Shown piece after piece: positions 3,587 through 28,862 of a stretch of DNA of 64,000 bases; positions within the stretch are counted from its first letter, which is position 1, and every line of letters begins with the position of its first letter. Source of the DNA: a phage; the sequence record PZ386978.1. One strand, written 5' to 3'. The translations under genes and the position numbers were made by a program. Under the pieces are notes generated by a model that was given only the letters and a program-made list of their open reading frames with translations, made no database searches and was not told where the DNA came from.

Positions 3587-3918
3587 TGGGAACATTAACT
3601 ATTGATGGTAAGAACAAAATCCTCGCCACGCTAACCCCAACGACTATTATTTTACACAATGTAGACCCAACGGCAGACCCTACAGCAAATAAGGTTACTC
3701 AGCCAGTGGCTATTTATTTTTCTGAACCGGATAATGGCTTAATTGCCTCAGAAGACACAGTTAACATTACTGTTCCAGCTTCTGCAACGGTATCACACTA
3801 TAGCTTGTGGGATGCTAACGATAAATGCGTGGCAACTGGTGCTCTTAGCAAACCTCAATTCTTTGCTGAAGAAGGTATCTATGTTATCTCTTCAGTCTCT
3901 GTAGATTTAAACAAATAG
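3586..3918 (+). CDS. Hypothetical head-module protein
   Basis: 110 aa ORF, start overlaps the stop of the previous ORF; no motif. Confidence 0.5.
   Translation: MGTLTIDGKNKILATLTPTTIILHNVDPTADPTANKVTQPVAIYFSEPDNGLIASEDTVNITVPASATVSHYSLWDANDKCVATGALSKPQFFAEEGIYVISSVSVDLNK

Positions 3919-11257: not shown

Positions 11258-11258
<1 letters not shown>
11019..11258 (+). CDS. Tail assembly chaperone frameshift extension (T-like part of a G/GT fusion)
   Basis: 79 aa ORF in the -1 frame relative to the upstream chaperone; no convincing ribosome-binding site of its own; ends where the tape measure gene starts. Confidence 0.5.
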
Positions 11259-19274
<8,016 letters not shown>

Positions 19275-27006: not shown

Positions 27007-27073
27007 AATGACCTCAAAGTTATATTAAATTTTGTATTACATTGGGTATAAAAATAAGCTATAACACCTGACT

Positions 27074-27079
27074 TGTCAA
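27074..27079 (-). promoter_or_regulatory. Candidate -35 hexamer (TTGACA on the minus strand) for the 26623..27006 gene
   Basis: TTGACA read on the minus strand about 70 bp upstream of the start; the best -10 candidate (TATTTT) is weak. Confidence 0.3.
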
Positions 27080-27097
27080 CAGATTTTATAGCTTATT

Positions 27098-27125
27098 TGG
27101 CAGATTTTTTATAAGGCTACTGCCA
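27098..27125. other. Module A1 stem-loop: TGGCAG / CTGCCA around a 16-nt A/T-rich loop
   Basis: Inverted repeat read directly; the stem covaries with the region-B copy (TGGTAG/CTACCA) while the loop is conserved. Confidence 0.7.
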
Positions 27126-27130
27126 TCCTT

Positions 27131-27220
27131 CCATACCAAACCGTTCCCAACCCAACCCTACAGCACCGAGCCAAACCCTACCGAACCGTGCCTAACCTGA
27201 CCTAGCCGTACCTTACCAAA
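27131..27220. repeat. Pentamer-periodic array A1: 18 consecutive CCNNN units
   Basis: ccata ccaaa ccgtt cccaa cccaa cccta cagca ccgag ccaaa cccta ccgaa ccgtg cctaa cctga cctag ccgta cctta ccaaa; strict 5-bp register; C-rich plus strand, GG-rich minus strand. Confidence 0.9.
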
Positions 27221-27259
27221 CATCGCTTAAAAACCCTCTTAGAAGACGCTTAAGTGATG
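27221..27259. other. H1 hairpin with conserved loop box ACCCTCTTAGAAGAC
   Basis: 10-bp stem CATCGCTTAA / TTAAGTGATG with one G-T (G-U) position; 19-nt loop; same element recurs at 28759-28797. Confidence 0.7.
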
Positions 27260-27287
27260 TAATCGAATTTTAATGTAGCTTCGATTA
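27260..27287. other. Module A2 stem-loop: TAATCGAA / TTCGATTA around loop TTTTAATGTAGC
   Basis: 8-bp inverted repeat; loop sequence shared with the 27398-27423 stem-loop although the stems differ. Confidence 0.7.
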
Positions 27288-27290
27288 ACT

Positions 27291-27350
27291 ACCCATACCT
27301 CACCTTACTTAACCGTACCGCACAGAACCACACCAAACCTAACACCACTT
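27291..27350. repeat. Pentamer-periodic array A2: 12 NACCN units
   Basis: accca tacct cacct tactt aaccg taccg cacag aacca cacca aacct aacac cactt. Confidence 0.85.
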
Positions 27351-27397
27351 CTCATCACCTTATTAAAAACTCTGTTTAAAGACCTTTTAAAAAGATG

Positions 27398-27423
27398 AGT
27401 CTCATTTTAATGTAGATGAGACT
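27398..27423. other. Module A3 stem-loop: AGTCTCAT / ATGAGACT around loop TTTAATGTAG
   Basis: 8-bp inverted repeat with the same loop motif as 27260-27287. Confidence 0.7.
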
Positions 27424-27425
27424 AG

Positions 27426-27480
27426 CTACCCATACCTTACCTAGCCAAACCTCACCTAACCATACCAAACCCCACTCCAC
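27426..27480. repeat. Pentamer-periodic array A3: 11 CNNAC units
   Basis: ctacc catac cttac ctagc caaac ctcac ctaac catac caaac cccac tccac; followed by a CCCTCTTAAAGAC box. Confidence 0.85.
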
Positions 27481-27517
27481 CTCATTAAAAGACCCTCTTA
27501 AAGACCTTTTAAAAAGG

Positions 27518-27533
27518 AGCCTCCGAAGAGGCT
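27518..27533 (-). terminator. Minus-strand intrinsic terminator with UUCG tetraloop after the 27545..27985 gene
   Basis: Minus strand reads AGCCTC-TTCG-GAGGCT followed by CTTTTTAAAA. Confidence 0.6.
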
Positions 27534-27544
27534 GCCTAGTCAAA

Positions 27545-27985
27545 TTAGAAAGGTTTTCTGCGTTGTTTGTTAATGTTAGCTTTCATAGCAGCTAAATGGT
27601 TTTGCTGTTCAATCAGTCGTGAACGTTCTTGATGACTAAGTGCCATAGTGTTCACATTCTCAATTGCTTGAGTGGCTTGTTTTAAAGCACGACCAATCTT
27701 ACCAGACATTTTACGTTTTGCAATAGTTGCTTGATGCTTAGGTTCAACCACACGATAACCAACACCCATTGAAGCAACCAGATAAATCTTCTCTTCTTTA
27801 AGAAGCTTCTCAATAAACTTCTCAAGCCGGTTTAGACGTGTAAGTGCATAAGCCTTCATTTCATCTTCGTACTTAACAATGTCGCCTTGATAAGTTGGCT
27901 TAACAATACCTAAGAAGGTATCCATCTCAGAATGTGATACAGTGTCACCGTAACTAAACTTTGCTGCTAATGCTTTTGTATTCAT
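27545..27985 (-). CDS. Hypothetical protein (array-flanked cassette, gene 2)
   Basis: 146 aa ORF; basic C-terminus; no recognisable motif. Confidence 0.55.
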   Translation of the reverse strand: MNTKALAAKFSYGDTVSHSEMDTFLGIVKPTYQGDIVKYEDEMKAYALTRLNRLEKFIEKLLKEEKIYLVASMGVGYRVVEPKHQATIAKRKMSGKIGRALKQATQAIENVNTMALSHQERSRLIEQQNHLAAMKANINKQRRKPF

Positions 27986-27987
27986 AA

Positions 27988-28593
<606 letters not shown>

Positions 28594-28650
28594 TTAGTTG
28601 ATTGTTAAGTTGTTTGTAAAGAACCCTCAACAGAAGACTCTTTAGAAACT

Positions 28651-28678
28651 TGGTAGATTTTTAACGTGGCTACTACCA
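28651..28678. other. Module B stem-loop: TGGTAG / CTACCA around a 16-nt loop
   Basis: Compensatory variant of the 27098-27125 stem with a near-identical loop (ATTTTTAACGTGGCTA). Confidence 0.7.
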
Positions 28679-28680
28679 TC

Positions 28681-28760
28681 CACCCATACCGCGCCCGACC
28701 CTACATTACCAGACCATACAAAGCCATACCCAACCAAACACTACCGCACCATACCGAACA
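28681..28760. repeat. Pentamer-periodic array B: 16 NNNCC/NNACA units
   Basis: caccc atacc gcgcc cgacc ctaca ttacc agacc ataca aagcc atacc caacc aaaca ctacc gcacc atacc gaaca. Confidence 0.9.
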
Positions 28761-28797
28761 TCACTTAAAAACCCTCTTAGAAGACTCTTAAGTGATG
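28759..28797. other. HB hairpin, second copy of the CCCTCTTAGAAGAC-box hairpin
   Basis: Perfect 10-bp stem CATCACTTAA / TTAAGTGATG with the same loop box as H1. Confidence 0.7.
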
Positions 28798-28827
28798 CTG
28801 GTGAGTACCCGTTGGTTTATGCTGCTC

Positions 28828-28855
28828 AGTATACTCACCAAATTTTCTATGTCAA
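28828..28855 (-). promoter_or_regulatory. Sigma70-like promoter candidate on the minus strand (TTGACA-16-TATACT)
   Basis: Read on the minus strand just downstream of the ligase stop; would place array B and HB in a ~230-nt leader of the 200-aa gene. Confidence 0.4.
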
Positions 28856-28862
28856 CAACTTT

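What the first reader, a model, noticed from the sequence alone, without database searches (positions are those of the whole stretch)
28651..28862. Fourth copy of the module lies in the leader of the 200-aa gene, downstream of a minus-strand promoter
1.1 kb from the main cluster a fourth module repeats the design: stem-loop TGGTAG/CTACCA (a compensatory variant of the 27098 stem, with an almost identical loop), a 16-unit pentamer array, and a perfect copy of the CATCACTTAA...TTAAGTGATG hairpin. A TTGACA-16-TATACT promoter-like sequence on the minus strand at 28828-28855 would transcribe through the whole module before reaching the 200-aa gene at 28590. That would make the module a ~230-nt GG-periodic 5' leader. 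The H1 copy at 27221-27259 keeps its stem through a G-U pair only if read as plus-strand RNA, so the functional strand is ambiguous.
Basis: partly seen in the sequence, partly recalled or inferred. Interest (0 to 1): 0.75.

Follow-up and report, generated by a model that had tools for sequence, protein, structure and literature searches.

The report
VIPR guide RNA (vrRNA) gene
The repeat module is the gene for a guide RNA of a recently described phage system (VIPR), in which the neighbouring 195-aa protein coats the RNA and uses it to find and silence a parasitic satellite element in E. coli; it is real, but it was already described in 2026.

Summary

The interpretation as a cis-acting 5' leader is only partly right. 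The window is a Felix O1-like phage. Its "200-aa gene" is 190/195 identical to the SUSP1 Vipr protein (PDB 36pp), and the next gene is 145/146 identical to SUSP1's vap1-position gene.

The module is the ortholog of SUSP1 vrRNA1. Promoter, 5' hairpin, 3' tail and RBS are base-for-base identical to SUSP1. Only the NN dinucleotides and the unit number differ (15 vs 12).

The TGGTAG/CTACCA stem is one helix of a 3' pseudoknot with strong covariation. Under the published rule (NN pairs with DNA, one base skipped), this guide matches 28/30 positions in a 92-aa gene of an E. coli satellite element, with every skipped base at a codon third position. The other skip lengths give background scores.

The functional strand is minus. 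The kind is already known (bioRxiv, April 2026). The conserved hairpin "box" before each vrRNA and before vipr is not explained in those papers.

The parts
28828..28855 (-). Sigma-70-type promoter TTGACA-16-TATACT (-35 at 28855-28850, -10 at 28833-28828). The predicted start is near 28821. It is the likely promoter of the upstream vrRNA, vipr and vap.
   Evidence: Matches 11 of 12 consensus positions. Identical in 17 of 18 related loci, with one spacer change in one more, always at the 5' edge of the upstream vrRNA array. Identical in phiSUSP1. Function as a promoter is inferred, not measured.
28759..28797 (-). 5' 'box' hairpin CATCACTTAAGAGTCTTCTAAGAGGGTTTTTAAGTGATG, immediately before the repeat tract. 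By size it is not part of the mature vrRNA. Its role is unknown; a processing or boundary element is suspected.
   Evidence: It folds only as minus-sense RNA. The motif is confined to the VIPR locus. It is not discussed in the two papers.
28684..28758 (-). vrRNA guide region: 15 YNNGG units. The NN code is TC AT GC AG TT TG AT TT AT CT AA AG CG GC AT. Three units have UG in place of GG.
   Evidence: GGY is conserved and NN is hypervariable across 73 tracts. Only these positions differ from SUSP1 vrRNA1. The code matches a satellite gene at 28/30 positions under the 1-nt-skip rule.
28651..28685 (-). vrRNA 3' tail: an H-type pseudoknot. S1 pairs GTGG (28683-28680) with CCAC (28669-28666). S2 pairs TGGTAG (28678-28673) with CTACCA (28656-28651).
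   Evidence: Across 28 tail variants, 89% of cells are paired and 9 of 12 pairs change on both sides; 0 of 500 shuffles reach the observed values and slid controls collapse. A 3' pseudoknot cap was seen by cryo-EM for the identical SUSP1 tail.
28618..28643 (-). Second 'box' hairpin AAAGAGTCTTCTGTTGAGGGTTCTTT, between the vrRNA tail and the vipr ribosome-binding site (GGAG at 28588-28585).
   Evidence: -10.2 kcal/mol in the vrRNA sense against -3.3 on the opposite strand; present in 20 loci.
27988..28575 (-). vipr: a 195-aa RAMP-like protein that polymerises on the vrRNA.
   Evidence: 190/195 identical to PDB 36pp 'SUSP1 Vipr protein', E = 1.5e-127. H17, K33, R39, E71, M72, K82, K88, R138, C173, D177, W178 and R179 are all present.
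27545..27985 (-). vap1 (vipr-accessory protein), 146 aa.
   Evidence: 145/146 identical to the phiSUSP1 gene that follows vipr. The locus is described as vipr + vap. No Pfam hit; phrog_5926.
27518..27533 (-). Intrinsic terminator-like hairpin (AGCCTCTTCGGAGGCT plus a T run) after vap1.
27393..27486 (-). Downstream vrRNA 1 (about 10-11 units plus a pseudoknot tail of the GGGTAG...CTAC type). Boundaries are approximate.
   Evidence: It matches a divergent satellite (L034) at 18/20 positions under the 1-nt-skip rule.
27256..27362 (-). Downstream vrRNA 2 (about 13 units plus pseudoknot tail). Boundaries are approximate.
   Evidence: No target was found in the loci examined.
27094..27222 (-). Downstream vrRNA 3 (about 18 units plus a tail of the GGAAGG...CCTT / TGGCAG...CTGCCA type). 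Boundaries are approximate.
   Evidence: No target was found in the loci examined.
27052..27098 (-). 19-nt inverted repeat followed by a T run, closing the vrRNA array. It overlaps a TTGACA-17-TATTTT promoter-like site for the next gene.
   Evidence: I2.

Best explanation
The module is a vrRNA gene, the guide RNA of a type II VIPR (Viral Interference Programmable Repeat) system, in a Felix O1-like phage. It is the ortholog of SUSP1 vrRNA1. Most likely the conserved sigma-70 promoter at 28855-28828 drives a minus-strand transcript that carries a 5' hairpin, 15 YNNGG units, a 3' pseudoknot tail, and then vipr and vap1. The 195-aa Vipr protein binds one protomer per pentamer. It holds each GGY motif and exposes the two variable bases. 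The resulting filament reads double-stranded DNA in a gapped register, two paired bases then one skipped, and blocks transcription. This particular guide is aimed at the 3' part of a 92-aa gene of unknown function in an 11-12 kb satellite-like island of E. coli and its relatives. That island carries tail genes related to the phage's own. What is shown here: the identity of the proteins, the RNA anatomy, the covarying pseudoknot, the variability pattern and the target match. What is taken from the SUSP1 papers: expression as an RNA of about 100 nt, Vipr binding, the pairing rule and silencing. What is inferred: the promoter, co-transcription, how the 5' end is made, and the biological effect on the satellite.
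For: Proteins: Vipr is 190/195 identical to PDB 36pp 'SUSP1 Vipr protein', with all cited RNA- and DNA-contact residues present. vap1 is 145/146 identical. Layout: one array upstream and three downstream of vipr-vap, as published for SUSP1. Orthology: the 295-nt upstream region is identical to phiSUSP1 except for the NN positions and the unit count. Variability: over 73 repeat tracts from 21 phage loci, pentamer position 3 is 100% pyrimidine and positions 4 and 5 carry 1.9 bits of entropy. Tail: the pseudoknot covaries. Target: 27-29 of 32 positions (28/30 with the 15 units) match at one site in five satellite variants, only with a 1-nt skip. Other skips give 18-21 and shuffled unit order gives at most 24. 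All skipped bases fall at codon position 3. About 2e-7 such sites are expected by chance. Rule: 30 of 59 vrRNAs reach at least 80% match at skip 1, against 3 of 59 at skips 0, 2 and 3. Satellite: its tape measure (29% identity) and baseplate protein (75%) match the window's genes at 11258-14280, in line with the paper's 26% and 72%. Self-targeting: none. Mechanism.
Against: No expression data exist for this phage; the RNA ends, the promoter use and co-transcription are inferred. Three of the 15 units are UGU rather than GGU, and changing GGY in every unit abolished silencing in the paper, so those units may bind Vipr less well. The best natural matches found are 28/30, not 30/30. The target gene has no known function. 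Two of the three downstream vrRNAs have no target in the few loci I examined. The source papers are preprints.
Confidence: 0.93

Rival explanations
1. One reading: the module is a cis-acting, GG-periodic 5' leader that controls transcription or translation of the downstream 195-aa gene, for example through protein binding, pausing or structure. It would not be a trans-acting RNA.
For: The module lies between a conserved promoter and the vipr RBS. A second box hairpin sits just before the RBS. Vipr binding to its own leader could in principle feed back on its own expression. Co-transcription of vrRNA1 with vipr worked in the SUSP1 constructs.
Against: Three equivalent modules lie downstream of vap1, after a terminator, and lead into no gene. 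The NN positions are hypervariable between otherwise identical loci, which a cis-regulatory leader does not predict. The NN code matches foreign DNA at 28/30 positions. The SUSP1 ortholog accumulates as a free RNA of about 100 nt and co-purifies with Vipr.
Confidence: 0.05
2. A nucleic-acid structural element: the G-rich non-template strand forms two-tier G-quadruplexes or a stable R-loop that serves as a replication origin or primer site. The module sits in the replication-gene region, between the ligase and polymerase side.
For: GG-N3 periodicity formally fits a two-tetrad G-quadruplex pattern. The region has strong GC skew in the direction of transcription and lies next to DNA ligase.
Against: Position 3 is strictly a pyrimidine and positions 4 and 5 are free. 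That pattern is what Vipr recognises; a quadruplex does not require it. The arrays co-occur with vipr homologs even at 37-40% identity in unrelated genomic contexts. The NN code has specific targets. Vipr-vrRNA filaments have been solved.
Confidence: 0.01
3. A protein sponge or ring-protein binding site, analogous to the TRAP-binding (G/U)AG repeats of the trp leader or to CsrA-binding sRNAs. It would titrate a host RNA-binding protein.
For: A 5-nt periodic triplet motif with 2-nt spacers resembles the TRAP site geometry (my own knowledge). No Rfam family matches.
Against: The motif is GGY, not GAG/UAG or GGA. Enterobacteria have no TRAP (my own knowledge). The cognate binding protein is identified and encoded next door. 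The spacers carry target information.
Confidence: 0.01

Closest known systems
SUSP1 vrRNA1 of the type II VIPR system (bioRxiv 10.64898/2026.04.26.720920 and 10.64898/2026.04.26.720927; PDB 36pp)
   Same: Same locus position, upstream of vipr. The promoter, 5' hairpin, 3' pseudoknot tail, second hairpin and RBS are identical. Vipr is 97% and vap1 99% identical. The GGY/NN repeat grammar is the same, as is the class of natural target, a satellite with Felix O1-like tail genes.
   Different: It has 15 repeat units instead of 12 and a different NN code, hence a different target site. Three units are UGU. The host phage groups with Felixounavirus records by DNA similarity, not with Suspvirus SUSP1 itself. 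Nearly identical copies (99.3-99.6%) exist, unannotated, in phages HK3 and Z31.
Class 1 CRISPR crRNA bound by a Cas7 (RAMP) backbone
   Same: A RAMP-fold protein polymerises along a guide RNA, flips out bases periodically with a thumb, and presents the rest for pairing. A variable guide is capped by a conserved structured handle.
   Different: There are no 20-40-nt direct repeats or spacers, no cas genes and no adaptation module. The period is 5 nt with 3 bases sequestered and 2 paired, against 6 nt with 1 flipped. The target is read with a 1-nt gap. The system is phage-encoded, and the outcome is silencing rather than cleavage.
TRAP-binding (G/U)AG repeats in the Bacillus trp leader
   Same: An RNA with a conserved triplet every 5 nt, each triplet bound by one protein subunit, placed in a 5' untranslated region (my own knowledge).
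   Different: The triplet is different (GGY). The protein forms a filament, not an 11-mer ring. The spacers are informative and pair with DNA. The RNA acts in trans.

Membership tests
VIPR system, type II (SUSP1 clade): vrRNA | An adjacent vipr gene encoding the RAMP-like Vipr protein | tested here: met
   The protein from 27988-28575 (minus) is 190/195 identical to PDB 36pp 'SUSP1 Vipr protein', E = 1.5e-127. The functional residues named in the structure paper are present.
VIPR system, type II (SUSP1 clade): vrRNA | A tract of 9-16 YNNGG repeats with conserved GGY and hypervariable NN | tested here: met
   There are 15 units at 28758-28684. Across 73 tracts, position 2 is 99% G, position 3 is 100% C/T, and positions 4 and 5 carry 1.9 bits. 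Compared with SUSP1, only NN positions differ. Caveat: 3 of the 15 units begin with U instead of G.
VIPR system, type II (SUSP1 clade): vrRNA | An invariable 3' tail of about 40 nt that folds into a pseudoknot | tested here: met
   The tail at 28685-28651 is identical to SUSP1's. The pseudoknot is supported by covariation in 28 variants: 9 of 12 pairs change on both sides and 0 of 500 shuffles reach the observed values.
VIPR system, type II (SUSP1 clade): vrRNA | Minimal locus: vipr plus a vap gene, flanked by vrRNAs (SUSP1 has one upstream and three downstream) | tested here: met
   One array lies upstream and three downstream of vipr-vap1. vap1 is 145/146 identical to the SUSP1 gene.
VIPR system, type II (SUSP1 clade): vrRNA | The NN code matches a natural DNA target under the 1-nt-skip rule (at least 80% of NN positions), typically in a competing mobile element | tested here: met
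   It matches 28/30 positions (93%) in a satellite 92-aa gene in E. coli, and 26-28/30 in E. albertii, Citrobacter and an IMG/VR contig. Skips of 0, 2 and 3 give background scores. The skipped bases fall at codon position 3.
VIPR system, type II (SUSP1 clade): vrRNA | Expressed as a discrete RNA of about 100 nt that co-purifies with Vipr | not testable with these tools
   This was shown for SUSP1 vrRNA1 by sRNA-seq and pull-down. It is inferred here from the sequence identity of all flanking elements.
VIPR system, type II (SUSP1 clade): vrRNA | Vipr-vrRNA represses transcription of the matched DNA | not testable with these tools
   This was shown for SUSP1 with GFP reporters and phage lambda. 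It has not been tested for this guide or this target.
CRISPR array / crRNA | Direct repeats of about 20-40 nt alternating with unique spacers of similar length, with associated cas genes | tested here: not met
   The repeat period is 5 nt. No such repeats were found. The neighbouring genes are vipr, vap1 and DNA ligase.
Any curated Rfam family (riboswitch, leader, sRNA) | A match to a covariance model at its gathering score | tested here: not met
   There are no matches in the whole window at gathering thresholds.

The most novel reading that the evidence does not exclude
The conserved 'box' hairpin is an undescribed biogenesis or control element of VIPR loci. It precedes every vrRNA and also vipr itself, it folds only in the vrRNA sense through G.U pairs, and it occurs nowhere else in the 64 kb. 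It could be the processing or boundary signal that sets the vrRNA 5' ends and releases the guide from the vipr mRNA.
Probability: 0.25. Interest if true: 0.4.

Novelty: already known. Interest (0 to 1): 0.3.

Why it matters
The first-stage reader picked out, from raw sequence alone, the guide RNA of a system that was published only in April-June 2026. VIPR is an RNA-guided DNA-recognition system with a gapped code, proposed to predate CRISPR. For this window the result turns an unannotated intergenic region and two 'hypothetical' genes into a defined system: the guide, its protein partner, and a concrete predicted target in a phage satellite carried by about 5% of complete E. coli genomes (265 of 5426). 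My re-derivation of the 1-nt-skip rule from 59 Felix O1-type guides independently supports the published rule. The remaining open point, the box hairpins and how vrRNA ends are made, is modest in scope.

Tried and rejected
Before the protein was identified I considered several readings: G-quadruplex or R-loop origin, Rho rut site on the C-rich strand, TRAP- or CsrA-like protein sponge, primase recognition cluster, dsDNA iterons, SD-like ribosome standby sites, and a general phage promoter. I dropped them for these reasons:

- The arrays always travel with vipr homologs in one orientation.
- Position 3 is strictly a pyrimidine and positions 4 and 5 are free.
- The box motif is confined to this locus rather than found at other genes.

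Searches that gave nothing:
- Rfam and tRNA search.
- Pfam on Vipr and vap1.
- Pfam and PHROGs on the satellite target gene.
- Two literature searches with generic terms. The system surfaced only through the PDB sequence search.
- Targets for downstream vrRNAs 2 and 3 in eight E. coli loci.
- A test of whether the satellites encode their own Vipr: they do not, by tblastn at E<=1.

I did not run structure prediction, fold search or the large protein searches, because a 97%-identical solved structure made them unnecessary.

Full report

Yes. A scan of the whole window for dinucleotides in phase at period 5 finds four arrays and no others. All four are CC on the plus strand (GG on the minus strand), at about 27111-27220, 27276-27350, 27401-27480 and 28666-28760. 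They have 9-11 of 12 units in phase, while the rest of the 64 kb rarely exceeds 4-5.

- The TGGTAG/CTACCA stem lies at 28651-28678.
- The CATCACTTAA...TTAAGTGATG hairpin lies at 28759-28797.
- The minus-strand TTGACA-16-TATACT site lies at 28855-28828. It matches 11 of 12 consensus positions and is the best promoter-like site in 24-32 kb.

**2. Context**

The window is a Felix O1-like phage (Ounavirinae); 257 phage records match the region. Every gene between 23.5 and 34 kb is on the minus strand. Reading in the direction of transcription, the order is:
- DNA ligase (29963-28863);
- the module of the finding;
- a 195-aa gene (ATG 28575; the mechanical ORF list starts it at GTG 28590 and so calls it 200 aa);
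- a 146-aa gene;
- a terminator;
- three more modules;
- the next gene.

Rfam has nothing here.

**3. Related sequences**

I examined 18 Felix O1-type loci from IMG/VR and two GenBank phages. In the period-5 scan, every one carries at least one array flanking the homologous gene pair. The number upstream varies from none detected to three, and the number downstream from one to three. GG is always on the coding strand.

Homologs of the 195-aa protein at only 37-40% identity, in unrelated contigs, are again flanked by period-5 GG arrays. These are of the GGC type, and some exceed 200 nt. The arrays therefore travel with this protein.

**4. Identification**

A sequence search of the PDB with the 195-aa protein returns entry 36pp, 'SUSP1 Vipr protein', at E = 1.5e-127 with 190 of 195 residues identical. 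That led to two 2026 preprints on VIPR (Viral Interference Programmable Repeat) systems. They report the following:
- The Vipr protein is a minimal RAMP-fold relative of Cas5, Cas6 and Cas7.
- It binds vrRNAs made of 9-16 YNNGG repeats, with GGY conserved and NN hypervariable, followed by an invariable 3' tail with a pseudoknot.
- One protomer binds one repeat, holding GGY and exposing NN.
- The NN dinucleotides pair with double-stranded DNA in a gapped register, two bases paired and one skipped.
- Binding silences transcription.
- In phage SUSP1, small-RNA sequencing found one vrRNA upstream and three downstream of vipr-vap1.

That layout is exactly the one in this window.

**5. Direct orthology**

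I fetched phiSUSP1 (KT454805.2). Its vap1-position gene is 145/146 identical to the window's 146-aa gene.

Aligning the window's 28870-28576 (minus) with the SUSP1 upstream region shows that the promoter, the hairpin, the tail, a second hairpin and the RBS are base-for-base identical. The only differences are the NN positions of the repeats and the number of units, 15 here against 12 in SUSP1.

All residues that the structure paper names as contacting G1, G2, Y3, the skipped base or the non-target strand are present. These are H17, K33, R39, E71, M72, K82, K88, R138, C173, D177, W178 and R179. Position 175 is V both here and in the PDB sequence, although the paper names T175.

**6. Anatomy of the finding**

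All parts are on the minus strand, with coordinates verified:

| Part | Coordinates | Sequence or note |
|---|---|---|
| Promoter | 28855-28828 | TTGACA-16-TATACT |
| Box hairpin 1 | 28797-28759 | CATCACTTAA...TTAAGTGATG |
| Guide tract, 15 YNNGG units | 28758-28684 | NN = TC AT GC AG TT TG AT TT AT CT AA AG CG GC AT |
| Tail | 28685-28651 | H-type pseudoknot |
| Box hairpin 2 | 28643-28618 | AAAGAGTCTTCTGTTGAGGGTTCTTT |
| Shine-Dalgarno | 28588-28585 | GGAG |
| vipr start codon | 28575 | ATG |

Helix S1 pairs GTGG, which lies in the last in-register pentamers, with CCAC in the S2 loop.

I collected 28 distinct tail variants from phages and satellites. Of all pair cells, 89% form standard pairs, and 9 of 12 pairs change on both sides. 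S1 is 100% paired with 3 of 4 pairs covarying. None of 500 shuffles reaches the observed values, and sliding the 3' partners by 1-3 columns drops pairing to 26-45%. This agrees with the pseudoknot cap seen by cryo-EM.

**7. Variability pattern**

I extracted 73 unique repeat tracts, requiring only G-like bases at positions 1 and 2. Position 3 is then 100% pyrimidine (89% T, 11% C). Positions 4 and 5 carry 1.90 and 1.89 bits of entropy. That is the signature of a guide: a fixed scaffold carrying free information.

**8. Target**

I applied the published rule by replacing each GGY with one wildcard base.

*Finding the satellite.* BLAST of the module against complete E. coli genomes finds vrRNA-like tail-plus-array sequences in chromosomal islands of 132-152 genomes. 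One such island lies in strain EC12. It is an 11-12 kb satellite-like element with:
- small hypothetical genes;
- an HNH endonuclease;
- a tape measure protein;
- a baseplate protein;
- a large serine recombinase.

*The match.* Scanning that element gives 27/32 for this guide at skip 1, against 20-21 at skips 0, 2 and 3.
- The site lies in a 92-98-aa ORF, and every skipped base falls on codon position 3.
- The gene occurs in 265 of 5426 E. coli genomes.
- Four further variants, one of them only 69% identical in DNA, give 28-29/32 at the same site, again only at skip 1. Shuffled unit orders reach at most 24.
- With the 15 bona fide units the match is 28/30, or 27/28 with the 14 strict-GG units. 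About 2e-7 such sites are expected by chance in the sequence searched.
- An exact-pattern scan finds the same site at 26-28/30 in Citrobacter sp., E. albertii and one IMG/VR contig.
- The guide has no match in its own genome; the best is 19/30.

*Link between satellite and phage.* The satellite's tape measure and baseplate proteins are 29% and 75% identical to the window's adjacent genes at 11258-14280. The paper reports 26% and 72% for SUSP1.

**9. Independent check of the rule**

I scanned 59 Felix O1-type guides with at least 8 units against eight E. coli loci. At skip 1, 30 reach at least 80% NN match and 17 reach at least 90%. At each of skips 0, 2 and 3, only 3 reach 80% and none reaches 90%. 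One of the window's downstream vrRNAs also hits a divergent satellite at 18/20. The other two have no target in this small sample.

**10. Judgement of the interpretation**

The promoter idea is reasonable. The site is identical in 17 of 18 related loci and has one spacer change in one more. It stays at the 5' edge of the upstream array whether one, two or three vrRNAs follow.

Transcription through the module into vipr is consistent with the SUSP1 constructs, where the 'vrRNA1 + vipr' segment was expressed from a single vector promoter.

The module is nevertheless not primarily a leader. Three arguments point that way:
- Equivalent modules sit after a terminator and lead into no gene.
- The variable positions encode a foreign target.
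- The ortholog accumulates as a free RNA bound by Vipr.

The functional strand is the minus strand.

**11. What remains unexplained**

A hairpin 'box' of about 26-39 nt precedes each of the four vrRNAs and also vipr. Its core is RRGUCUU...AGGGYYUUU. It occurs nowhere else in the window. It folds at -4 to -12 kcal/mol in the vrRNA sense but hardly at all on the other strand, because several pairs are G.U.

The long and short forms differ by compensatory changes; this is my reading of the sequences. The mature SUSP1 vrRNA is about 100 nt, which equals 12 units plus the tail, so the hairpin is probably not retained. Neither preprint mentions vrRNA biogenesis or this element. A processing or boundary role is my inference only.

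**12. Verdict**

This is a real feature, correctly described but incompletely interpreted. It belongs to a kind that is already published: it is the SUSP1-clade vrRNA1 with a different guide. Nearly identical copies sit unannotated in phages HK3 and Z31. Confidence in the identification is high. Interest is low to moderate, because the discovery has already been made.

Noticed in passing
window 28797-28759, 28643-28618, 27259-27221, about 27396-27362 and about 27512-27484 (minus strand): A conserved 'box' hairpin precedes every vrRNA and vipr itself. It folds only as vrRNA-sense RNA (through G.U pairs), is confined to the VIPR locus, and is not discussed in the VIPR preprints. It may be a processing or boundary element.
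   Followed up: partly
window 28740, 28720 and 28705 (first bases of the units, minus strand): Three of the 15 units of this guide read UGU instead of GGU. Across 73 tracts, position 1 is U in 10% and A in 6% of units, so natural vrRNAs tolerate a non-G at G1, even though substituting GGY in every unit abolishes silencing in the paper.
   Followed up: partly
L029 (E. coli EC12, NZ_CP070229.1), vrRNA near 20.0 kb and match at 15475-15513; also L031 at 2636: The satellite islands carry their own vrRNA with the phage-type tail and a terminator, but no Vipr homolog, so they presumably borrow the phage's Vipr. The EC12 satellite guide's best 1-nt-skip match is 23/26 in the host torZ-cmoB intergenic region (21/26 at the same place in a second strain), against a background of 14-17.
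   Followed up: no
L022-L026, for example L023 3545-3870 and 4308-4523: Vipr homologs at 37-40% identity in high-GC viral contigs are flanked by much longer GGC-type period-5 arrays (up to about 230 nt) that run right up to the next start codon. These arrays are interrupted by a conserved hairpin. In L023 (about 3640-3700) they also contain a tRNA T-arm-like GGGTGCGAATCCC inside an inverted repeat.
   Followed up: no
window 27988-28590: The mechanical ORF call of 200 aa starts at GTG 28590. The solved SUSP1 protein and the GGAG at 28588-28585 indicate ATG 28575 (195 aa).
   Followed up: yes
window 28800-28839: An 8-bp inverted repeat (GGTGAGTA...TACTCACC) overlaps the -10 hexamer of the promoter and the predicted transcript start. 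It is identical in phiSUSP1 and may be an operator or a 5' stem-loop.
   Followed up: no
window 11258-14280: The phage's tape measure gene and the adjacent baseplate-like gene have homologs (29% and 75% identity), in the same order, in the E. coli satellite that the vrRNA targets.
   Followed up: yes
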